DNA from: a virus | DNA length: 50,405 nt | Direction: 5' to 3' (one strand) | Virus genome (UHGV): UHGV-0192279 | Shown: positions 2,902-11,085 of the stretch, piece by piece | Numbering within the stretch: the first letter of the stretch is position 1 | Layout: every line of letters starts with the position of its first letter | Notes under the pieces: generated by a model | Told to the model about the DNA's origin: nothing | Databases searched by the model: none | The model's input: the letters and a program-made list of their open reading frames with translations, nothing else | Translations under genes and position numbers: made by a program

Positions 2902-3284
2902 AACGCAGCGAAGTTTATGACGAAATAAGGGATTGGATTCAATCCCACGGATACGATGAAGGCTATATTTTACAAGCCCGTTTCTGGAATGAGCGAAGCA
3001 ATTCGAATAACGACAGATACATCGTGATCCAGCAAAACGGCGGCGCGGCTGGTGAAGAAGCAATAACCCGTGATTATTTCCGCATCCTGGTTATTTCGGC
3101 GCGTAATGATGCAAATATCAGTGAGGTGGAAGACCTGGCAGATGCCATCCGTCAAAGCATGTTAACAGAATATAAAACTGATAAAATTACACACATGAAG
3201 CCAGTTGGCGCTATTCCTGCAATGCAAACGAGAGAAGGGCGCTTTATTTTTACCGTAGCTTTTCAAACCATCATATCCAGATAA
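2898..3284 (+). CDS. tail terminator-like protein (128 aa)
   Basis: Overlapping start-stop (ATGA) with upstream gene; size and position just upstream of major tail gene. Confidence 0.3.
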   Translation: MKRSEVYDEIRDWIQSHGYDEGYILQARFWNERSNSNNDRYIVIQQNGGAAGEEAITRDYFRILVISARNDANISEVEDLADAIRQSMLTEYKTDKITHMKPVGAIPAMQTREGRFIFTVAFQTIISR

Positions 3285-3827: not shown

Positions 3828-4505
3828 ATGATTCATGTTCGGACCGGGCAATTTGCGGCGGTGGTAGACGGTAGGCGGTATGTGTTTAATCCCTGCTTCG
3901 CCGCGATGGCAAAAATAGGCAGTGACAGAGAACTGGTCGAATATTTTGCAACAATCCACGGCGGCAAATATCCATCACGCTTGCCAGCAGACCCAGACTT
4001 ACGCAATCGCATTCTGGCGCGGTGTTATGGTGAAATAGTGCAGACATCAATGCACATCCTGAAATGTTGCTCAGACGATGAAATAGGCCCGTTATTGGGC
4101 GAGTGTAGGTTTACTCCTTCGGGCAAGTTGCGACTAAAACCAGGCTTGATGCCTACTGACGACGTTATCACGCTGGCGCAGCATTGCGTGTACCACGGCT
4201 TAATCGGTGATGGGCCGGAAGAAGATGCCGGAGAAATCCCGGAAGGGGAATATAAGCCGACTTTTAACGTCCTTGAATTCGTCTATTCTGCCGTTGCTCA
4301 CCTGGGCTTGTCAGAATCGGAAGCATGGAATATGACAATGACCGGATATAGGGCCACTGTACGCGCTAAAACGCCGCCAGACGAAAGAAGCGAAAGAAGT
4401 AAGCCAAACGTTCACATAAATAAACGTGCTTATGACGAGCAAATGGAGGCCGCTAAAAAGGCGCTAAAAAGAATGGAAAATCGCAAGCAAGAAAAAGCCC
4501 GGTAG
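3828..4505 (+). CDS. tail assembly chaperone (G/GT position), 225 aa
   Basis: ATG at 3828 with AGGGTGA SD (track start 3819 is GTG); located between major tail and tape measure genes. Confidence 0.45.
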   Translation: MIHVRTGQFAAVVDGRRYVFNPCFAAMAKIGSDRELVEYFATIHGGKYPSRLPADPDLRNRILARCYGEIVQTSMHILKCCSDDEIGPLLGECRFTPSGKLRLKPGLMPTDDVITLAQHCVYHGLIGDGPEEDAGEIPEGEYKPTFNVLEFVYSAVAHLGLSESEAWNMTMTGYRATVRAKTPPDERSERSKPNVHINKRAYDEQMEAAKKALKRMENRKQEKAR

Positions 4506-4513
4506 ATCCGGGC
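4492..4513. terminator. bidirectional hairpin terminator
   Basis: A5-GCCCGG-tagat-CCGGGC-GTTTGTCTT; T-run on minus strand is clean, sits 8 nt downstream of minus-strand gene 4521-4934. Confidence 0.5.
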
Positions 4514-4520
4514 GTTTGTC

Positions 4521-4934
4521 TTATTTGATTCTAACAATATCAATAAAACCGTTACCTAAATTGACAATTGCGTGATTTTTTGCGCCAGCGCCGCCTTTAT
4601 TAAAAATTCTTTCAGCGAAAGCAATTTTATTTGCTTTACACTCGTTAGCTATCCTGTTTTTTATTTCGCTGTTGTTTTCAAAGCCTACGCTTGCAGCAGC
4701 CTCGATTACAAGGCCATAATTAAACCAACGAGCATAAACTGGTTTACCTTCAAAAATTTTATCAATTACCTTAAAAAGAATTTTGGGTGCGGCTGGTTCT
4801 TTTTTGATCATGTCGTGATATGCGGCTACATGGTTTGCCACTTCTTCACAGTTAATGTTTATGGCCTCGTTAGCGTTCGCGTTAAATGCCAGTGCAGCAA
4901 TCACAGCAAGTACCATTTTTGCTAACCGTTTCAT
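4521..4934 (-). CDS. secreted accessory (moron) protein with signal peptide (137 aa)
   Basis: N-terminus MKRLAKMVLAVIAALAFNANA-NEA is a classic Sec signal with AxA cleavage site; GGGGG SD; antisense to tail operon; AT-rich flanks. Confidence 0.6.
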   Translation of the reverse strand: MKRLAKMVLAVIAALAFNANANEAININCEEVANHVAAYHDMIKKEPAAPKILFKVIDKIFEGKPVYARWFNYGLVIEAAASVGFENNSEIKNRIANECKANKIAFAERIFNKGGAGAKNHAIVNLGNGFIDIVRIK

Positions 4935-5001
4935 AATTAACCCCCGTAATTATTCTGATTTGCTAAATGCTTCATTTAACTTAGTTATACACGCATATTG
5001 T

Positions 5002-5085
5002 TTATTTTTTAAGTGCTTTTAACATTTCTTCGATAAGGTCCGCATAGCGTTCATATTCGTTGGGACGGTAGTTTACGTTTCTCAT
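5002..5085 (-). CDS. 27-aa leader ORF of antisense cassette (MRNVNYRPNEYERYADLIEEMLKALKK)
   Basis: ATG preceded by AAAGAGGATAAGGAA SD; first ORF after candidate minus-strand promoter. Confidence 0.25.
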   Translation of the reverse strand: MRNVNYRPNEYERYADLIEEMLKALKK

Positions 5086-5155
5086 TTCCTTATCCTCTTT
5101 CACTTCCTCCGGGACATCCGTCCTTCCTGCATCTCTTCTATCTTTCCCTACATCA

Positions 5156-5184
5156 TTTATACAAAACGGTATCGTTAAAGTAAA
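5156..5184 (-). promoter_or_regulatory. candidate sigma70 promoter for antisense cassette
   Basis: Minus strand TTTACT -17 nt- TATAAA; TACA-N3-TGT motif abuts the -35 on its upstream side. Confidence 0.3.
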
Positions 5185-5235
5185 GACATTTTGTATAAAA
5201 TAGATGCATAGATCACATTTGCATGAGGTTAAATC

Positions 5236-7584
5236 ATGGCTACCAGTGTAGGCACAATTTATTACGAAGTTGACGCAAAAACAGGACAACTTCTTGTAGC
5301 ACAACGACAGGCAGACCAGGCCTTTGACCGTATAGAGCGCGGTGCTAAACAGGCAGATCGCCAGGTAAACACACTGAAAACATCAATCAAAGCACTGACC
5401 AAGGTTATCTATCTGCTAATTGCTGCCGAGGCCGTTAGACAGTTTATGGAAATGGCAGAGCAGGCCAAAATGCTTCGCGTAAAAATCAAAATGCTTACGG
5501 GCGATGCGGAGTCCGCCGGACGGGTTTTCGACGGCCTGAAAGCAATATCCAGGGAAACAGGGCAAAGCCTGAAGGATACTGGCGAGTTATGGCAAGGTCT
5601 TGCCATCTCACTGAAGAACACGTCAGCTACGGAAGGGCAATTACTTAACCTGGTTGGCACTATTCAGAAAATGGGGGCGTTAGGCGGCGCATCAGCGGAA
5701 CAGATGTCTAACTCTATGCGCCAGTTCCGCCAGTCTATAGACGGCGGCGTGCTGCGTGCTGAAGAATTTAACAGCCTACTTGAAAACACCCCGACCATCG
5801 TACAGACAATGGCCCGTCAGATGGGGTTATCTATGGGCAAGTTCCGCGCCGAAATGCTGGACGGCAAGATCACGGCAGAAAGGATGGTTAACGCAATCCA
5901 GGCGGCTACGCAGGAAACAAACGAGCAGTTTGCTCAGTTGCCGCGCACATCCGGCATGGCTATCAATGAGCTTAAAGTCGAAATCATGGGGCTTGTTGAA
6001 CAGCTTGATGATCTTTTCGGCGTATCAGATGGCGTAGTCTCAGCTATCGACTTAATCACAAAAGGCGTTAAGGGGTTAGGTGAGGGCGCTAAATTCGCTA
6101 AAACCTGCTTCGATACACTCAAAACGGCTGGTGGCGAATTCATCGACATGTTTGATGATGTGGCTGTGAAGGCTGGCGAGGTGGCAGAGAAGATCATCGC
6201 AATGGTGACGCCAATCAAGGCACTTATGGACGCCTACAAATGGATGAAGGAGGTTGTAGATAAGCGCAAGGAAGAACTAAATAGCAACAATGAGAAGAAA
6301 TTCGGCCCTACAGTCGGTAAAGTCATGACTTTTGCAAACGACATTAAAAACGCGACTGCCGCTTATGATGAGTTTATGCAGAAACAGGCAGAAGCCAACG
6401 ACGGCAAGATCACCGGATTCGACAAGCCAGTTGATAAGCCTAAAAAGGGTAAGAAGACTGGCAGCAAGAAAAGCAAAGAGGATACGCTTGGTGACAAGGG
6501 TATAAGCGTTTCTGACCAGTACAATAAAGACACCGCCGCCATGCGCAAAGCGTTAGAGAACGGCAAGGCCATTGATGCTGCATTCGCCCAGGGTAAAATC
6601 ACCCTCCTTGAGTACCGCGCCGCGCAAAAAGGGATAGTTAAGGAACGGGATGAAGAATTAGCCCAAATTCAGGTAGATGAATTGCGTGATAAATGGGCGC
6701 AAATAGTAAGCCCGATGAATCAGCTTAAAGGCGAGGTTGACCCTATTAAGCAGGTACAAGATGAATGGGCCGTCCGTAAGCAAAAGCTTATCGACCTGGG
6801 CGCTACCGAAGCGCAACAGAAACAGGCATTGTTAGCCTATGAGCAACAGATCCGCGATCTGAAATGGGAGCAATGGCAGGCGCAAAGCCAGACAAACGGC
6901 CTGATCGGTGATTGCGTTAATGGCCTTAAAGGTGGTATGAGCAATGCGCTTGTCGGCCTGCTTAACGGTACTCAATCATTGAGCGATGTTTTTGCTAACT
7001 TAGGGAGCAATATACTAGGGAATATTGGCAACAGACTTTCTGATATAGCAGCCGACTGGATAGCAGATCAGATCATGATGGAAACACAAAGCAAGGCAAC
7101 TCAAGCAAGTACAACGGCAAGCGCGGTTGCCGCTCAGGGAAGCATCGCGGCGGCGGCGGCCCCGGCGGCGGCGGCAACGGCTGCATCAACTGGCGGTAGC
7201 TGGGCGGCGGCTGGTTCGGCGGCGCTTACTGCGATCACGTCGCTGGCAACATCCATTTTCGGCGGCGGGCGCTTTAATGGTGGTAGCGTAATTGGTGGCA
7301 ATATGTACCGCGTCGGGGAACATAACAGGCCGGAGCTATTCCAGACGTCTAACGGCAACCAATACATGATCCCCGGCGAGAATGGCAGGGTTATCCCGGG
7401 GCGTGATATTGGCGGCGGCGGCGGCGGTATCAGTATGCCTGTTTACATCGACATTCAAACCACAAACGGATTTAGTGACGAAGACAGCCGCAGACTTGAA
7501 CAGACAATGGAACGTGTAGCAATGAAAATGATAACAAGGGAATCGCAAAGACCTGGCGGGATGTTGCAACCGCGCCGCAAATAA
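5236..7584 (+). CDS. tail tape measure protein (782 aa)
   Basis: Largest ORF between chaperone and tail-tip genes; long alpha-helical sequence with Ala/Gly-rich C-terminal region. Confidence 0.85.
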   Translation: MATSVGTIYYEVDAKTGQLLVAQRQADQAFDRIERGAKQADRQVNTLKTSIKALTKVIYLLIAAEAVRQFMEMAEQAKMLRVKIKMLTGDAESAGRVFDGLKAISRETGQSLKDTGELWQGLAISLKNTSATEGQLLNLVGTIQKMGALGGASAEQMSNSMRQFRQSIDGGVLRAEEFNSLLENTPTIVQTMARQMGLSMGKFRAEMLDGKITAERMVNAIQAATQETNEQFAQLPRTSGMAINELKVEIMGLVEQLDDLFGVSDGVVSAIDLITKGVKGLGEGAKFAKTCFDTLKTAGGEFIDMFDDVAVKAGEVAEKIIAMVTPIKALMDAYKWMKEVVDKRKEELNSNNEKKFGPTVGKVMTFANDIKNATAAYDEFMQKQAEANDGKITGFDKPVDKPKKGKKTGSKKSKEDTLGDKGISVSDQYNKDTAAMRKALENGKAIDAAFAQGKITLLEYRAAQKGIVKERDEELAQIQVDELRDKWAQIVSPMNQLKGEVDPIKQVQDEWAVRKQKLIDLGATEAQQKQALLAYEQQIRDLKWEQWQAQSQTNGLIGDCVNGLKGGMSNALVGLLNGTQSLSDVFANLGSNILGNIGNRLSDIAADWIADQIMMETQSKATQASTTASAVAAQGSIAAAAAPAAAATAASTGGSWAAAGSAALTAITSLATSIFGGGRFNGGSVIGGNMYRVGEHNRPELFQTSNGNQYMIPGENGRVIPGRDIGGGGGGISMPVYIDIQTTNGFSDEDSRRLEQTMERVAMKMITRESQRPGGMLQPRRK

Positions 7585-7588
7585 CACT

Positions 7589-7615
7589 AAGGCCGCTATA
7601 AGCGGCCTTTATTTT
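7589..7615 (+). terminator. rho-independent terminator after tape measure gene
   Basis: AGGCCGCT-ata-AGCGGCCT hairpin followed by TTTATTTT. Confidence 0.55.
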
Positions 7616-7901
7616 ACATGGTAAGGATATAAATTAAACAGCACAGGAATGCGGGCGCGGCGAAGTCGCAAACGCTAGCCATATTCCATGCTTTTGGTAA
7701 AAAACCACCATACCACGGCATTCTTTCTCGTTTCCCTCCGCAAAATTCCGCTATGTAACGATATTCAGCCTGTGTGTGTTCCCGCGCAAAAAAGAATGTA
7801 CATCCAATCAGGCCGCCAGTGAGATAATCACCAGTAAGCAGGCCGATAACAACCTGTATAGTCGCCGCAGCCAGTGCGTGACCAATAACGGTTAAATCCA
7901 T
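7614..7901 (-). CDS. small membrane protein (95 aa, about 2 TM helices)
   Basis: Hydrophobic segments; last gene of four-gene antisense cassette. Confidence 0.45.
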   Translation of the reverse strand: MDLTVIGHALAAATIQVVIGLLTGDYLTGGLIGCTFFFAREHTQAEYRYIAEFCGGKRERMPWYGGFLPKAWNMASVCDFAAPAFLCCLIYILTM

Positions 7902-7903
7902 CG

Positions 7904-8089
7904 TTAATCCTCCCGATCGTTCTCAAATGTGCCATCTACAAATTTTTGCAGCCCGGCGATAAGTTGTGTTGCCTGCGATTTTTCAATTACTATGGTTTCA
8001 GTCCCCATAAGTTCGGTTATCCACAGCCGACCATCCTCATCAAGATCTAACCTAACTCCGTAACATAACTCTGTTTCGTCAATAATCAT
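7904..8089 (-). CDS. small acidic protein (61 aa)
   Basis: AGGAGG SD upstream of ATG; preceded by palindrome GTTACGT-gcg-ACGTAAC. Confidence 0.45.
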   Translation of the reverse strand: MIIDETELCYGVRLDLDEDGRLWITELMGTETIVIEKSQATQLIAGLQKFVDGTFENDRED

Positions 8090-8198
8090 TTTTCCTCCTA
8101 TAATCTTCCGTTACGTGCGACGTAACCCCTGCCGAACATCACTAACCAGATGTTCCAGATCTCCCGCTAGGTATATTTCTCCTCCTCCATATTCCACC

Positions 8199-8459
8199 TC
8201 ACTTATGAGCGCCTTTCACTCCGCAATGACAGTTGTATTCCAGGTGATCGATAATTAACCAAATATTCAAATCTTCACTGAACAGCCGCCAGTCAGGATT
8301 GATATCGAATTTAAAGCCATAACCATCACGTAATTTTTTGGGGCGGGCTTCTTTTTTCAGGAAGGCGTTAAGCAACTTCTTGCCTTTCTTGATTACCCGT
8401 TCCTGTGCATTCTTTTGTGCTTTCAGGTTTTTTCGATAGTTACCAGTTTCATAACTCAC
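8199..8459 (-). CDS. small basic protein (86 aa)
   Basis: GTG start with AAGGA SD; Lys/Arg-rich N-terminal half. Confidence 0.4.
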   Translation of the reverse strand: MSYETGNYRKNLKAQKNAQERVIKKGKKLLNAFLKKEARPKKLRDGYGFKFDINPDWRLFSEDLNIWLIIDHLEYNCHCGVKGAHK

Positions 8460-8469
8460 CCCATCGTCC

Positions 8470-8625
8470 TTAGTTAAGCGCCCTCAGGAAGAAATCCCGG
8501 TATTCATCATTCTTCGCGTTCATCATGAATTGACCGTATTTGAATGCGTCGTCGAAACCCTTAACAATTGCTACTTCCACTTGCTCGAATGCGTTGTTTA
8601 GCATCACTACTACATAGCTACTCAT
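8470..8625 (-). CDS. 51-aa ORF (MSSYVVVMLNNAFEQ...)
   Basis: Below 60-aa track cutoff; ATG with GTGAGG SD; first gene of antisense cassette. Confidence 0.3.
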   Translation of the reverse strand: MSSYVVVMLNNAFEQVEVAIVKGFDDAFKYGQFMMNAKNDEYRDFFLRALN

Positions 8626-8695
8626 TTTTGGGCCTCACTTGCTGGTACCGCTTTTCTTCTTGCTTCCTGTATACAGCTTGTTGCTTCGTGTGTGA

Positions 8696-8709
8696 ATACA
8701 TATTGTAAA
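8696..8709 (+). repeat. 14-bp repeat ATACATATTGTAAA copy 1 (contains palindrome TACAtatTGTA), 6 nt upstream of a TATAAT hexamer
   Basis: Exact 14-mer shared with 10301-10314; both in divergent intergenic regions upstream of tail-tip genes. Confidence 0.6.
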
Positions 8710-8795
8710 TTGGCTATAATTCTTGTGTCGAATATCTCATTTTTCGCGTAGAAGTGCGTAAAGATATATACAAAATGTAACTTACAGGAGGGGGT

Positions 8796-9149
8796 ATGCC
8801 GGAAGTGTTCAGATGGACACCACAGAGAAGCTACAGCGTAAACAGTGAGCCTAACGTGTCCGTTATCAAGCTGGGCGATGGCTATGAACAGCGCCAGACA
8901 AAAGGGATTAATCCACTACTTGACAGCTATACGCTGGTCTTTAAAGGTACGAGCGCCGGATGCGGTGACGCCGGAAACGTGGCGCTCCAGGTTGACGCAT
9001 TTTTAAGAGCACGTTGCGCGGTCGAGGCGTTTTACTGGACGCCATCTACAGACGGAGTGAAAAGGCTTTTTGTATGCCGAAAGTGGAGCATGGCGAAAGA
9101 CGGCCCGGTATGCACTCTGAATGCAACGTTTGAACAAGTTATCAATTAA
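8796..9149 (+). CDS. M: minor tail protein M (117 aa)
   Basis: Clear similarity to lambda gpM pattern (FRW...GDGY.QR...WTP...KWS...FEQV.N); AGGAGGGGG SD. Confidence 0.85.
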   Translation: MPEVFRWTPQRSYSVNSEPNVSVIKLGDGYEQRQTKGINPLLDSYTLVFKGTSAGCGDAGNVALQVDAFLRARCAVEAFYWTPSTDGVKRLFVCRKWSMAKDGPVCTLNATFEQVIN

Positions 9150-9162
9150 TGGAGAAGTCAAT

Positions 9163-9348
9163 ATGTATGCTATTTGTGTAGTTGACCGCACGGGCGCTTT
9201 TACATTATTTGACGACTATGAAATCAAAGATCTTACCGTAAAGGATGACAATGGCGAGATCTGGTATCTTCATGACGTTGGTGACGGGTATGTTGGGTGC
9301 AGGTCGAGAGAGGGAAGGGGAGTTTTATTTTTGGTTGATAGGGTATAA
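9163..9348 (+). CDS. small protein between M and L (61 aa)
   Basis: ATG with GGAG SD; track ORF 9121 start is in-frame upstream and overlaps M. Confidence 0.35.
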   Translation: MYAICVVDRTGAFTLFDDYEIKDLTVKDDNGEIWYLHDVGDGYVGCRSREGRGVLFLVDRV

Positions 9349-9448
9349 ACACGACCCCGCGCGAAGCGGGGTTTATAGTGTCGATAGCAGAATGCATAAC
9401 AATCCAATAATGATAATAATCACCTCCAGAACGTAATGTTCGCACATC

Positions 9449-9697
9449 TCATAACGCCCCCTTCAAATATGTCAATCCCTTATCAGTGACGAATGAATGG
9501 TTTACCTGGTTTTCATCCGTCATGATGATGAATAACTTTTCCTGTAGGTATTTCGCTTTTGGGTACAGCGTTAAACAGACCTGGTACAAAACCCCGCGCT
9601 CAATCAGCAAATCAATAAATTCGTGCTCATGATAACCGATAAGGCGGGCGGCCTGTTTCAACGTGTACACATAGTCACCGTGATTGCGCCGCGTCAT
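9449..9697 (-). CDS. small HTH-like protein (82 aa)
   Basis: Helix-turn-helix-like segment YTLKQAARLIGYHEHEFIDLLIERGVL; last gene of three-gene antisense cassette. Confidence 0.4.
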   Translation of the reverse strand: MTRRNHGDYVYTLKQAARLIGYHEHEFIDLLIERGVLYQVCLTLYPKAKYLQEKLFIIMTDENQVNHSFVTDKGLTYLKGAL

Positions 9698-9706
9698 ATT
9701 GCCACC

Positions 9707-10033
9707 TTATTTGCCGAACGCTCCCAGGTTGTCGATACAGAAATCTTTTGCCGCTTTTTCGTATTCACGTTTTGCTTGCGGATCATCTGCCGGGAAACCT
9801 TTTACGTGTATTTCACTAGGACAAGCCTGATCCATAGAGTTGGCAAAATTAACATTGAAGTTAACATTAATATCTTTCGGGTTCATATCTTCCACCTTAT
9901 CCGCTATTTGTACTGGAATGATTTTAAATTCCCTGGCGCGTCCGAAGAATCGAACAAGTTTTTCACCTTCCTCGATCGCCATTTCGTGACTATCATACAA
10001 GCCGTAACCTTCCCAATCCTTACTTCCTGCCAT
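9707..10033 (-). CDS. hypothetical protein (108 aa)
   Basis: ORF in antisense cassette; no recognisable motif. Confidence 0.4.
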   Translation of the reverse strand: MAGSKDWEGYGLYDSHEMAIEEGEKLVRFFGRAREFKIIPVQIADKVEDMNPKDINVNFNVNFANSMDQACPSEIHVKGFPADDPQAKREYEKAAKDFCIDNLGAFGK

Positions 10034-10081
10034 CCATACATCGAGACGATATTTTGCATGGTGTTACCTTTGTGTTTATTG

Positions 10082-10240
10082 TCATGCGTATCTGTTGTAG
10101 CTATTAGCCTTGCAAGCGTAATACTGACGTTCGGCTATATGGAACGGTTTTCCCATCTCTTTGATAAGAACATCCATAAATTTTTTCATGTCGCCTTTCA
10201 CTTCAACAAAAACTTTCTCTGCGTATTTTGCGGGTCTCAT
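10082..10240 (-). CDS. 52-aa ORF (MRPAKYAEKVFVEVKGD...)
   Basis: Below track cutoff; ATG at cassette 5' end with weak SD. Confidence 0.25.
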   Translation of the reverse strand: MRPAKYAEKVFVEVKGDMKKFMDVLIKEMGKPFHIAERQYYACKANSYNRYA

Positions 10241-10300
10241 AGTGTTCTACCTTGTTCAAAGTTGTGCCATTTTGTTGACTCCCCTTCGTTTGAGTAAAAT

Positions 10301-10314
10301 ATACATATTGTAAA
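10301..10314 (+). repeat. 14-bp repeat ATACATATTGTAAA copy 2
   Basis: Exact copy of 8696-8709, 67 nt upstream of the L start codon. Confidence 0.6.
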
Positions 10315-10380
10315 AATATGGATCAATCCATTTTGGCATGATCTTGCGTGATGCAGATCACAAAATGACAAGGTGAGAAA

Positions 10381-11085
10381 ATGCGCAATATACCTACAGA
10401 GATGATTATTGATTCCGTCGATGCCGGAGTCGGCGCGGTAATTGACTTGTTCGAACTGGACCTTACGCCCCTGGGTGGCGAGGTTATCCGCTTCCATTCC
10501 GGCGCAAACGGCTATTACGGCCCGGTTATCTGGAAGGGGGCGGCTTACAACAGTTACCCCATCGAGGCTACTGGCTTCGAAATGAAAAACGAAGGCGTTT
10601 ATTCGCGCCCTCAAATGGTTGTAGCCAACATCGGCGGGCTAATTACGGGGATGAATAACGATTTCAACGACCTAAGAGGCATGAAGGTTACGCGCCGCCA
10701 GGTGGAGGTGAAATATCTTGACGCTGTTAACTTCCCTAACGGAAACCCCGACGCAGATCCATCTATTGAAGCTGTGTCTTTTTACGTCGTGGAGTCCATG
10801 AGCGAAGAAACAGCGGATCAGGTGCAATATGAACTGTCAACGCCAATTGATGCAGATAAGGCTGTTATTCCTGGGCGCACCATCCTTGCTGACGTTTGCC
10901 AGTGGCAATACAGAGGCGACGGGTGCATGTATTCTGGCGGCCCGGTCGCAACGGATAAAGATTCACCAACAAGTGACCCAACGTTAGACAAGTGCAGTCA
11001 CCGCCTTAGCGGTTGCCGTTTGCGTTTCCCGCGCCCGGCAGCACTGCCGATCTCCTGTTTCCCTGGTTCCAGCAAGGTAGGTTAA
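10381..11085 (+). CDS. L: minor tail protein L (234 aa)
   Basis: Strong similarity to lambda gpL (RPT..V.N..G..TGM, RRKV..LDAVNF.NGN, GR..LA..C.W.YRGD.C.YSG, DKCS..LSGC). Confidence 0.9.
   Translation: MRNIPTEMIIDSVDAGVGAVIDLFELDLTPLGGEVIRFHSGANGYYGPVIWKGAAYNSYPIEATGFEMKNEGVYSRPQMVVANIGGLITGMNNDFNDLRGMKVTRRQVEVKYLDAVNFPNGNPDADPSIEAVSFYVVESMSEETADQVQYELSTPIDADKAVIPGRTILADVCQWQYRGDGCMYSGGPVATDKDSPTSDPTLDKCSHRLSGCRLRFPRPAALPISCFPGSSKVG

What the first reader, a model, noticed from the sequence alone, without database searches (positions are those of the whole stretch)
7614..8625. Four-gene antisense cassette between tape measure and tail-tip genes
Four minus-strand genes (51 aa; 86 aa basic; 61 aa acidic; 95 aa membrane) are inserted between the tape measure gene and gene M. 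The 61-aa gene is preceded by a perfect palindrome GTTACGT-gcg-ACGTAAC (8110-8126). A basic/acidic small-protein pair plus a membrane protein would fit a toxin-antitoxin or exclusion module, but no family could be recognised.
Basis: partly seen in the sequence, partly recalled or inferred. Interest (0 to 1): 0.55.

Follow-up and report, generated by a model that had tools for sequence, protein, structure and literature searches.

The report
Prophage accessory operon with RelE/ParE-like toxin gene
The antisense block between the tape-measure and tail-tip genes is an ordinary but real prophage "moron" operon of five small genes (one dead). Its conserved core encodes a RelE/YoeB/ParE-fold toxin-type protein from an already catalogued but untested family, and that gene is damaged in this copy.

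Summary

- **Family:** the 86-aa basic protein belongs to Pfam PF24732 (ParE_like, 40.8 bits against a cutoff of 24.4). A confident model of a canonical relative matches almost only RelE/YafQ/HigB/YoeB/ParE toxins.
- **Spacer:** the "spacer" holding the palindrome is a fifth gene (30 aa) killed by an amber codon. The palindrome lies in its 3' coding end, is imperfect in relatives and is no rarer than chance.
- **Damaged toxin gene:** a 1-bp deletion destroys the native start frame of the 86-aa gene here. It stays open only from an upstream GTG.

Across 46 related loci (mEp021-like coliphages) the constant unit is 51-aa gene plus toxin-like gene. The 61-aa and 95-aa genes are optional add-ons. 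The basic/acidic pairing is therefore not supported.

A toxin-antitoxin reading (51 aa as antitoxin) is plausible but weakened. Three loci, including cultured E. coli UMNK88, keep an intact toxin gene without the 51-aa gene. The two proteins also do not co-diverge.

Verdict: new member of a known kind, modest interest.

The parts
8702..8731 (-). Sigma-70-like promoter candidate (TCGACA-18-TACAAT) for the cassette, in the 170-bp divergent gap to gpM
   Evidence: Consensus scan, 10/12 matches. The -10 element is largely conserved and the -35 only partly, across 38 distinct relatives. Function not shown.
8470..8625 (-). A51: 51-aa mildly acidic protein (PHROG 29810, function unknown); first cistron and candidate partner or antitoxin of the next gene
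   Evidence: Present in 44/46 related loci. dN/dS 0.07. No Pfam, NCBIfam, PADLOC or PDB match.
8199..8459 (-). T86: 86-aa basic RelE/YoeB/ParE-fold toxin-type protein (Pfam PF24732 ParE_like; PHROG 1525). This allele starts at GTG 8457-8459.
8432..8452 (-). Damaged native 5' end of T86. The family's ATG is at 8450-8452. A 1-bp deletion at about 8432-8434 makes that frame stop after 9 codons (MKLVTIEKT*).
   Evidence: Alignment with four E. coli prophages, column 370. Translations. The same allele occurs in L009 and cluster P0001.
8098..8190 (-). c2 pseudogene: a 30-codon Trp-rich peptide gene with an in-frame amber at codon 8 (8167-8169); intact in about half of the relatives
   Evidence: Translation MEEEKYT*REIWNIWLVMFGRGYVARNGRL*. 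The intact form is MEDDKFTWREIWNIWLVMFSRSYIARNGRL in relatives.
8110..8126 (.). Perfect palindrome GTTACGT-gcg-ACGTAAC, lying in the 3' coding end of c2 (codons Y-V-A-R-N)
   Evidence: Imperfect in the closest relatives. 7 observed against 3.5 +/- 2.2 expected in the window.
7904..8089 (-). X61: 61-aa strongly acidic protein (PHROG 13627, unknown function); optional cistron
   Evidence: A 61-aa-type gene is present in 21/46 loci. dN/dS 0.21. Among phage isolates, found only in mEp-type phages.
7614..7901 (-). M95: 95-aa membrane protein (PHROG 1443, unknown function) with a conserved polar core AREHTQAEYR...MPWYGGF; optional cistron, start 2 nt after the X61 stop
   Evidence: dN/dS 0.14. Homologues lie directly after tail-fibre or tailspike genes in P2-like, P22-like and lambda-like phages.
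7589..7609 (.). Bidirectional intrinsic-terminator-like hairpin (9-bp stem, 6 G-C pairs) shared by the end of the tape measure gene and the end of the cassette
   Evidence: Stem conserved in relatives. Annotated as terminator T15 in phage mEp010.
5236..7584 (+). Tape measure protein gene (left flank)
   Evidence: Annotated as such in relatives.
8796..9149 (+). gpM-type minor tail protein gene (right flank)
   Evidence: Pfam Phage_min_tail 2e-28.

Best explanation
The block is a prophage accessory ('moron') operon embedded antisense in the late tail operon of an mEp021-like temperate coliphage. It is one transcription unit: promoter candidate at 8731-8702, five tightly packed cistrons, and a terminator hairpin at 7609-7589.

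It is built from independently exchangeable parts. The constant core is the 51-aa gene followed by a RelE/YoeB/ParE-fold toxin-type gene (Pfam PF24732). The 30-aa c2 gene, the acidic 61-aa gene and the 95-aa membrane-protein gene are optional additions.

Most likely mechanism (inferred, not shown): the core works like a type II toxin-antitoxin or abortive-infection pair expressed from the repressed prophage. T86 would be a YoeB/RelE-type translation-dependent mRNA endonuclease rather than a gyrase poison, and the upstream 51-aa protein would hold it in check. Antiterminated late transcription running through the cassette on the other strand during lytic growth would oppose cassette expression.

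In this particular window the module is probably attenuated or dead. The toxin gene has lost its native first beta-strand through a frameshift, and c2 carries an amber codon. The 95-aa protein is most plausibly a separate envelope-acting conversion or exclusion factor.
For: Shown:
- The ORFs are real genes under purifying selection.
- The cistrons are 2-10 nt apart, each with a Shine-Dalgarno-like sequence.
- There is a promoter-like site and a bidirectional terminator.
- GC is 0.43-0.47 against 0.49-0.55 in the flanks, and GC skew is reversed.
- Gene content at this site varies among 46 loci, while 51 aa + T86 is constant in 44/46.
- T86 scores above the PF24732 curated cutoff, as do all of its relatives that were scanned, close and distant.
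- The AF2 model of canonical relative P0004 has pLDDT 89.3 and pTM 0.79.
- The top Foldseek hits are YoeB, with probability 0.91 and 21-23% identity.
- Weak hhalign matches place the family's invariant Arg on RelE R61 and YoeB R65.
- His and Tyr/Asn near the C-terminus are nearly invariant in the family.
- Gene order (small gene first, toxin second) is that of relBE, yefM-yoeB, dinJ-yafQ and parDE (established knowledge).
- The toxin gene is independently broken in several lineages: a frameshift in PAR and Ecol_244, an extra 85-bp deletion in Ecol_244, and the N-terminal frameshift here and in L009.
- The model of the window allele falls to pLDDT 68 and loses the N-terminal strands.

Precedents: morons with their own promoter and terminator in tail operons (HK97 gp15, PMC3594210), and antisense defence genes inside the Q-dependent late operon (phi80 taiEcA, PMC11364771).
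Against: - An intact, canonical T86 gene sits directly behind the same promoter region with the 51-aa gene cleanly deleted in L021, L025 and cultured E. coli UMNK88. UMNK88 has no 51-aa homologue anywhere in its genome by blastn.
- The 51-aa protein and T86 do not co-diverge. Mantel r is 0.17 (p = 0.056), whereas the 51-aa protein tracks gpM with r = 0.52.
- The 51-aa protein matches no antitoxin or DNA-binding family.
- Distant PF24732 proteins sit in long co-directional arrays of small phage genes, after a ParB-like gene, or (by tblastn match) in other isolated phages such as Sortsne, Kc237 and phiKp_21. The neighbours checked were not homologous to one another or to the 51-aa protein, and matched no known antitoxin family.
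- No PADLOC defence model matches.
- Transcription, toxicity and binding are all untested.
Confidence: 0.5

Rival explanations
1. T86 is a stand-alone phage RelE-fold protein, for example a small RNase or ribosome/nucleic-acid-binding regulator comparable in concept to T4 RegB. It is not one half of a toxin-antitoxin pair. The 51-aa, c2, 61-aa and 95-aa genes are then unrelated morons that merely share a promoter.
For: T86 is intact without the 51-aa gene in L021, L025 and E. coli UMNK88, and UMNK88 has no second copy of the 51-aa gene. The 51-aa protein and T86 do not co-diverge. Distant family members lie in co-directional arrays of small phage genes, or match other isolated phages, with no partner shared between the contexts examined. 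No antitoxin-type domain is found in any neighbour.
Against: The 51-aa/T86 adjacency, at 10-17 nt spacing, holds in 44/46 loci. Repeated independent inactivation of T86 suggests it carries a cost. The closest structural matches are all bona fide toxins. Every locus that lacks the 51-aa gene still has an intact c2 directly downstream, so another neutraliser is not excluded.
Confidence: 0.33
2. One reading: the basic 86-aa and acidic 61-aa proteins form the toxin-antitoxin pair in toxin-first order (as in higBA). The palindrome is their operator, and the 95-aa membrane protein is an exclusion effector of the same module.
For: Opposite charges: pI 9.7 against 4.1. Toxin-first TA operons exist (higBA; established knowledge). 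The three genes are co-transcribed here.
Against: A 61-aa-type gene is absent from 25 of 46 loci that carry T86, including the minimal two-gene cassettes in LSU61 and L035-L045. A decayed gene (c2) lies between the two. The palindrome is a coding remnant, imperfect in relatives and not above chance. Homologues of the 95-aa protein occur in P2-, P22- and lambda-like phages with neither partner.
Confidence: 0.05
3. The cassette is decaying cargo with no current function in this phage. What is seen are remnants of morons that were useful elsewhere.
For: In this window T86 has lost its native start frame and c2 has an amber codon. In the nearest relative L009 the 95-aa gene is also split. Content at this site turns over rapidly.
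Against: The 51-aa, 61-aa and 95-aa genes are intact here and under purifying selection across relatives. The T86 ORF remains open for 77 conserved codons, with a plausible AGGA-7 nt-GTG start. The same allele is found on several contigs.
Confidence: 0.12

Closest known systems
YefM-YoeB, RelBE and DinJ-YafQ type II toxin-antitoxin systems (RelE/ParE superfamily, mRNA-interferase branch)
   Different: There is no significant direct sequence match to PDB toxins. The upstream 51-aa protein has no YefM/Phd, RelB or DinJ-like domain. The toxin-type gene occurs without it in three loci. Activity is untested.
ParDE and PaaR2-PaaA2-ParE2 (gyrase-poisoning ParE toxins, the latter in an E. coli O157 prophage)
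   Different: ParE structures rank below the RNase-type toxins and share only 5-7% identity. T86 is shorter than typical ParE. It keeps an Arg/His/Tyr set that resembles RNase-type toxins (inference).
Pfam PF24732 (ParE_like) / PHROG 1525 / RefSeq 'ParE family toxin-like protein'
   Same: T86 is a member by HMM score above the curated cutoff. So are all relatives found.
   Different: The family is a catalogue entry only. No paper in the searchable library mentions it and no member has a tested function. This subfamily is very narrow: 9 representatives at E <= 1e-3 among 1.84 billion.
HK97 gp15 and other tail-operon morons (PMC3594210)
   Same: Extra genes are inserted between conserved tail genes next to the tape measure gene. 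[quoted passage not shown]
   Different: Here the orientation is antisense to the late operon, and the unit is polycistronic. The 95-aa protein gives no Pfam match at all, so none to any membrane-protein family there. No exclusion phenotype is known.
phi80 TaiEcA/AtiEcA 'non-contiguous operon' (PMC11364771)
   Same: A prophage-expressed gene is placed in divergent orientation inside the antiterminated late operon, so that lytic transcription and cassette transcription oppose each other.
   Different: The genome position differs (upstream of the packaging module in phi80). No homology could be tested because the Tai sequences are not held. There is no evidence here of tail-assembly inhibition or of a counter-defence gene.

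Membership tests
RelE/ParE toxin superfamily (Pfam PF24732 ParE_like) | Sequence match to the family HMM above the curated gathering score | tested here: met
   40.8 bits against cutoff 24.4, E 2.2e-10, residues 21-76. All close and distant relatives also match.
RelE/ParE toxin superfamily (Pfam PF24732 ParE_like) | RelE/ParE fold: N-terminal strand, helix, then a 3-4-stranded antiparallel sheet | tested here: met
RelE/ParE toxin superfamily (Pfam PF24732 ParE_like) | Catalytic residues of the RNase branch (RelE R61/R81/Y87; YoeB E46/R65/H83/Y84), or the ParE-type C-terminus needed for gyrase poisoning | tested here: inconclusive
   The invariant Arg aligns with RelE R61 and YoeB R65 in weak hhalign matches (E 0.0019-0.19). 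His and Tyr/Asn are nearly invariant near the C-terminus, but their equivalence to catalytic residues was not established. Lys replaces YoeB E46.
RelE/ParE toxin superfamily (Pfam PF24732 ParE_like) | Growth inhibition on expression (mRNA cleavage or gyrase poisoning) | not testable with these tools
   Needs expression and biochemical assays.
Type II toxin-antitoxin system | Small partner gene adjacent to the toxin gene in one operon | tested here: met
   The 51-aa gene ends 10 nt before the T86 start here and 17 nt before it in relatives. The pair is present in 44/46 loci.
Type II toxin-antitoxin system | Toxin not maintained without its antitoxin | tested here: not met
   T86 is intact with the 51-aa gene deleted in L021, L025 and E. 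coli UMNK88. There is no 51-aa homologue elsewhere in UMNK88.
Type II toxin-antitoxin system | Partner recognisable as an antitoxin (RHH, Phd/YefM, RelB, HTH, AbrB and similar) | tested here: not met
   No Pfam, NCBIfam, PADLOC or PDB match for the 51-aa protein or its family profile.
Type II toxin-antitoxin system | Co-divergence of cognate partners | tested here: not met
   Mantel r between the 51-aa and T86 distances is 0.17 (p = 0.056). It is 0.52 for 51 aa against gpM.
Type II toxin-antitoxin system | Direct neutralisation and autoregulation of the promoter | not testable with these tools
A strongly conserved block upstream of the promoter candidate was noted but not interpreted.
Moron (independently transcribed accessory unit in a phage late operon) | Present in some related genomes and absent or different in others at the same site | tested here: met
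   The distance between the TMP and gpM genes ranges from 684 to 1396 bp, with at least 7 recurring gene types in differing combinations.
Moron (independently transcribed accessory unit in a phage late operon) | Own promoter and terminator, and a base composition different from the flanks | tested here: met
   Promoter-like site and terminator-like hairpin by consensus only. GC 0.43-0.47 against 0.49-0.55, with reversed skew.
Moron (independently transcribed accessory unit in a phage late operon) | Expressed from the repressed prophage | not testable with these tools
   Needs RNA-seq or reporter data from lysogens.
Superinfection-exclusion or lysogenic-conversion membrane proteins (HK97 gp15/YebO, Cor, SieA, Imm) | Sequence membership of a known exclusion family | tested here: not met
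   The 95-aa protein matches no Pfam, NCBIfam or PADLOC model and only a function-unknown PHROG. Its profile finds nothing in the PDB.
Superinfection-exclusion or lysogenic-conversion membrane proteins (HK97 gp15/YebO, Cor, SieA, Imm) | Small membrane protein encoded next to receptor-binding or tail genes | tested here: met
   Hydrophobic segments at 1-25 and 74-95. Homologues lie directly after tail-fibre, tailspike or Stf genes in other phages.
Tai/Ati tail-assembly-inhibition systems | Homology to Tai or Ati proteins | not tested
Only the antisense-in-late-operon architecture is shared (PMC11364771).

The most novel reading that the evidence does not exclude
PF24732 would be a phage-restricted, uncharacterised branch of RelE/YoeB-fold RNases, used in two ways. 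In other phages it would be a stand-alone gene within arrays of small genes. In mEp021-like prophages it would be the toxin of a new TA-like module whose inhibitor is a previously unknown 51-aa protein (or the 30-aa Trp-rich c2 peptide). Because the module lies antisense inside the antiterminated tail operon, late transcription would shut off inhibitor synthesis and release the toxin at a defined point of the lytic cycle or of a superinfection.
Probability: 0.15. Interest if true: 0.55.

Novelty: new member of a known kind. Interest (0 to 1): 0.3.

Why it matters
If the core pair is an active toxin-antitoxin or abortive-infection module, it would add an uncharacterised RelE-fold family and a new small inhibitor to the prophage-borne defence and addiction repertoire of E. 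coli. About 0.6% of complete E. coli genomes carry it, as do all seven sequenced isolates of the gut-prevalent mEpimmI phage group that these searches found.

It would also give a compact test case for how antisense morons inside late operons are switched between lysogeny and lytic growth.

As it stands, the finding mainly corrects annotation. It adds one unannotated pseudogene and one frameshifted toxin-type gene. It also shows that the 95-aa membrane protein belongs to a widespread family associated with tail-fibre genes, whose strikingly conserved polar motif would merit a phenotype screen.

Tried and rejected
- PADLOC and NCBIfam scans of all cassette proteins found nothing.
- PDB sequence searches with T86, its profile, the 51-aa profile, the 95-aa profile and the 61-aa protein gave only chance-level hits.
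- Rfam on 4000-11000 at E <= 1 gave no RNA family.
- tblastn of the family against plasmids gave no match.
- Literature searches for PF24732, and for ParE-like + prophage + tape measure, returned no papers. The mEpimmI paper does not discuss the cassette.
- Palindrome as operator or RNA element: rejected. It is a coding remnant, not conserved and not above chance.
- 86-aa/61-aa as the TA pair: rejected on co-occurrence.
- Homology between the 61-aa protein and the 92-aa gene that precedes 95-aa homologues in lambda-like phages: none.
- Biased decay of the toxin gene relative to the 51-aa gene as evidence of toxicity: the counts are too small to claim (4 altered T86 against 2 deleted 51-aa genes in 46 loci).
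- The rule 'every intact T86 has the 51-aa gene or c2' holds, but it has no statistical power (about 1 exception expected by chance).
Full report
**Observation.** The window is an almost complete genome of an mEp021-like temperate coliphage (the 'mEpimmI' group). The closest public relatives of the region are phages MagusPhagus, mEp010, mEp044 and mEp515, plus prophages in 32 of 5,426 complete E. coli genomes (group described in PMC11893012).

The palindrome is at 8110-8126. Charge and hydropathy are as described: 86 aa pI 9.7, 61 aa pI 4.1, and 95 aa with hydrophobic segments at about 1-25 and 74-95.

**Are they genes?** Yes. I collected 53 viral-contig loci and several E. coli prophage and phage loci. 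In-frame dN/dS is 0.07 (51 aa), 0.07 (86 aa), 0.21 (61 aa) and 0.14 (95 aa). That is the same range as the structural gene gpM (0.07). The two wrong frames give about 0.9-2.7.

The cistrons are 10, 8, 8 and 2 nt apart, each preceded by a Shine-Dalgarno-like sequence. A sigma-70-like site (TCGACA-18-TACAAT, 8731-8702) lies upstream. A 9-bp G+C-rich hairpin (7589-7609) that reads as a terminator on both strands lies between the last cistron and the end of the tape measure gene. GC is 0.43-0.47 in the block against 0.49-0.55 in the flanking tail genes, and the GC skew changes sign. These are the textbook properties of a moron (PMC3594210), here in antisense orientation.

The 86-aa protein (T86) matches Pfam PF24732 'ParE_like' at 40.8 bits (cutoff 24.4; E 2.2e-10). 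RefSeq already names its homologues 'ParE family toxin-like protein'.

The subfamily is narrow. The word-indexed search found 34 clusters. An exhaustive profile search of 1.84 billion representatives found only 9 at E <= 1e-3. Every relative scanned, close and distant, also matches PF24732.

Direct sequence searches of the PDB found nothing. Profile comparison with RelE, YoeB, RK2 ParE and YafQ was weak but colinear (E 0.0019 to 0.19).

The RNase-type toxins rank above the gyrase-poisoning ParE proteins. The family's invariant Arg aligns with RelE R61 and YoeB R65, and a His and a Tyr/Asn near the C-terminus are nearly invariant. I therefore infer a YoeB/RelE-like mRNA-interferase activity rather than gyrase poisoning. 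This is inference only.

All relatives start MKLVAI... from an ATG that corresponds to window 8450-8452. The window has a 1-bp deletion about six codons in (alignment column 370), so that frame reads MKLVTIEKT-stop. The ORF stays open only from a GTG five bases upstream in another frame, which replaces the first residues with MSYETGNY.

In the confident model those first residues form strand beta-1 (residues 3-7). Their loss fits the collapse in model confidence for the window allele. The same allele occurs in viral contig L009 and in cluster P0001.

Two of the four closest E. coli prophages (PAR, Ecol_244) carry a different frameshift in an A-run of the gene. Ecol_244 also has an 85-bp deletion of its 3' end.

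About half of the relatives have an intact 30-aa gene at this position (MEDDKFTWREIWNIWLVMFSRSYIARNGRL). The window and L009 carry TAG in place of Trp-8, the PAR-type prophages carry a frameshift, and other relatives keep only a C-terminal remnant.

The palindrome covers the codons Y-V-A-R-N at the 3' end of this gene. The four nearest relatives have two arm mismatches. Perfect 7+3+7 palindromes occur 7 times in the window against 3.5 +/- 2.2 expected. It is therefore a by-product, not an operator for the 61-aa gene. Rfam finds no RNA family in the region.

**Modularity.** In 46 loci the site between gpM and the tape measure gene holds 684-1396 bp. The content is built from at least seven recurring small genes.
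- T86 is present in 46 loci (by construction of the search).
- The 51-aa gene is present in 44.
- The 30-aa c2 gene is recognisable in about 23.
- A 58-aa gene is present in 17.
- A 61-aa-type gene is present in 21.
- The 95-aa gene is present in 11, always after a 61-aa gene unless truncated.
- A 49-aa gene is present in 5.

The minimal cassette, for example in E. coli O157:H7 LSU61 and in L035-L045, is just the 51-aa gene plus T86.

**Is 51 aa + T86 a toxin-antitoxin pair?**
- *For:* the fold; the canonical gene order (small gene first, 10-17 nt spacing); near-universal adjacency; and repeated independent inactivation of T86.
- *Against, (i):* in L021, L025 and the cultured strain E. coli UMNK88, the 51-aa gene is cleanly deleted. 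The promoter region and a fully conserved T86 remain. UMNK88 is not among the 34 genomes that contain any 51-aa homologue.
- *Against, (ii):* pairwise divergence of the 51-aa protein correlates with that of gpM (r = 0.52) but hardly with that of T86 (r = 0.17, p = 0.056). T86 varies down to about 60% identity while the 51-aa protein stays at 86-98%.
- *Against, (iii):* the 51-aa protein matches no antitoxin or DNA-binding family.
- *Against, (iv):* distant PF24732 proteins show no shared partner. They lie immediately after a ParB-like gene in 40-45-kb phage contigs, inside long co-directional arrays of small phage genes, or (by tblastn match) in other isolated phages such as Sortsne, Kc237 and phiKp_21. 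The neighbours checked in the first two settings were not homologous to one another.

All loci lacking the 51-aa gene retain an intact c2 directly downstream, so another neutraliser cannot be excluded. The sample has no power to test this.

I put the TA-like mechanism at roughly even odds. A stand-alone RelE-fold effector is the main rival.

**The optional genes.** The 61-aa acidic protein has no homologues outside mEp-type phages among isolates, and no informative match.

The 95-aa protein belongs to PHROG 1443 and has a strikingly conserved polar core (F-x-AREHTQAEYRWI...GKR..MPWWGGF..AW..S..D...P). Its 50-60% identical homologues sit directly after a Peptidase_S74 tail fibre in a P2-like Enterobacter prophage, and directly after a P22-type tailspike at a prophage end. 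In many lambda-like coliphages they follow the side tail fibre gene and a 92-aa gene. Partial homologues occur in Aeromonas phages, including records of about 235 kb.

That position is where receptor-masking and conversion genes usually lie (own knowledge: cor, llp; gp15 in PMC3594210). An envelope-acting conversion or exclusion role is therefore a reasonable guess, but nothing here tests it.

**How the whole thing probably works.**
- *Shown:* the operon anatomy, gene reality, family and fold of T86, modular turnover, and the lesions in this copy.
- *Inferred:* the unit is transcribed from its own promoter in the lysogen and stops at the shared hairpin. During lytic growth, antiterminated late transcription crosses it on the other strand and opposes its expression, as proposed for the phi80 taiEcA 'non-contiguous operon' (PMC11364771). 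T86 acts as a translation-targeting toxin restrained by the 51-aa protein. The 95-aa protein acts at the envelope.

In this window the T86/c2 segment looks attenuated or dead. The 51-aa, 61-aa and 95-aa genes are intact.

**Novelty and score.** The family is already catalogued (Pfam, PHROG, RefSeq name), but no member has been studied. Toxin-type genes and membrane proteins in tail-operon morons are a familiar theme. I rate this a new member of a known kind, with interest 0.3.

The most novel reading still open has probability about 0.15. It is a phage-restricted RelE-fold RNase family with a new small inhibitor, whose antisense placement in the late operon times toxin release.

Noticed in passing
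window 9121-10297: A second accessory block lies between gpM and gpL. It has a plus-strand 75-aa ORF (9121-9348, PHROG 3249) overlapping the end of gpM. It then has three minus-strand genes: 82 aa with a KilAC antirepressor-type domain (9449-9697, Pfam ANT 3.4e-6), 108 aa (9707-10033, PHROG 38567) and 52 aa (10082-10240). The block is conserved and annotated in relatives. GC is low and the skew is reversed, as in the studied cassette. The 224-aa plus-strand ORF at 9623-10297 is probably an antisense artefact of these genes.
   Followed up: partly
window 4521-4934 (minus): A 137-aa minus-strand gene with a Sec-type signal peptide (MKRLAKMVLAVIAALAFNANA) sits between the DUF6246 tail-chaperone-like gene and the tape measure gene. 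This is the same site as the HK97 gp15 moron. GC is 0.35-0.39. In E. coli STEC308 the site upstream of the tape measure gene holds a different minus-strand gene, annotated as a T6SS-associated TagO protein.
   Followed up: no
window about 8735-8785 (gap between the 51-aa gene and gpM): A block of about 45 nt (minus strand: AAGTTACATTTTGTATATATCTTTACGC..TTCTACGCGAAAAATGAGAT) is as conserved across 38 distinct relatives as the coding sequence. It contains a near-repeat, CTTTACGC / CTTCTACGC. It could be a regulator binding site or part of the gpM translation-initiation region. It is unexplained.
   Followed up: partly
window 7589-7609: The terminator stem is identical in the window and its four closest relatives, but the central bases differ: GCTTATAGC here against GCTATAAGC in relatives on the minus strand. 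It looks as if the centre of the hairpin had been inverted.
   Followed up: no
L048-L061 (IMG/VR contigs of 40-45 kb), about 2171-3201 in L048: Distant PF24732 proteins (about 32% identity, 61-72 aa) start at the stop codon of a 271-aa ParB-HTH protein. They are followed by DNA-methyltransferase-like or other early genes. No small upstream gene is present. This context is quite unlike a toxin-antitoxin operon.
   Followed up: partly
L046 (140-kb IMG/VR contig) 319-405 and 2974-3240: A 62%-identical homologue of the 30-aa c2 peptide and a 51%-identical T86 homologue occur on the same strand of a much larger element, 2.6 kb apart rather than adjacent.
   Followed up: no
L069 3210-3794; L070 3213-3788 (lambda-like phages): In many lambda-like coliphages the homologue of the 95-aa membrane protein forms a conserved pair with a preceding 92-aa gene, directly after the side tail fibre gene. 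In Lambda_ev203 it is followed by a sitABCD manganese-transporter cargo. The 92-aa protein is unrelated to the window's 61-aa protein.
   Followed up: partly
L009 (IMGVR_UViG_2541047752_000007), cassette region: The nearest relative of the window shares both lesions (T86 N-terminal frameshift, c2 amber). Its 95-aa gene is also split into two ORFs, which suggests ongoing decay of the cassette in this lineage.
   Followed up: no
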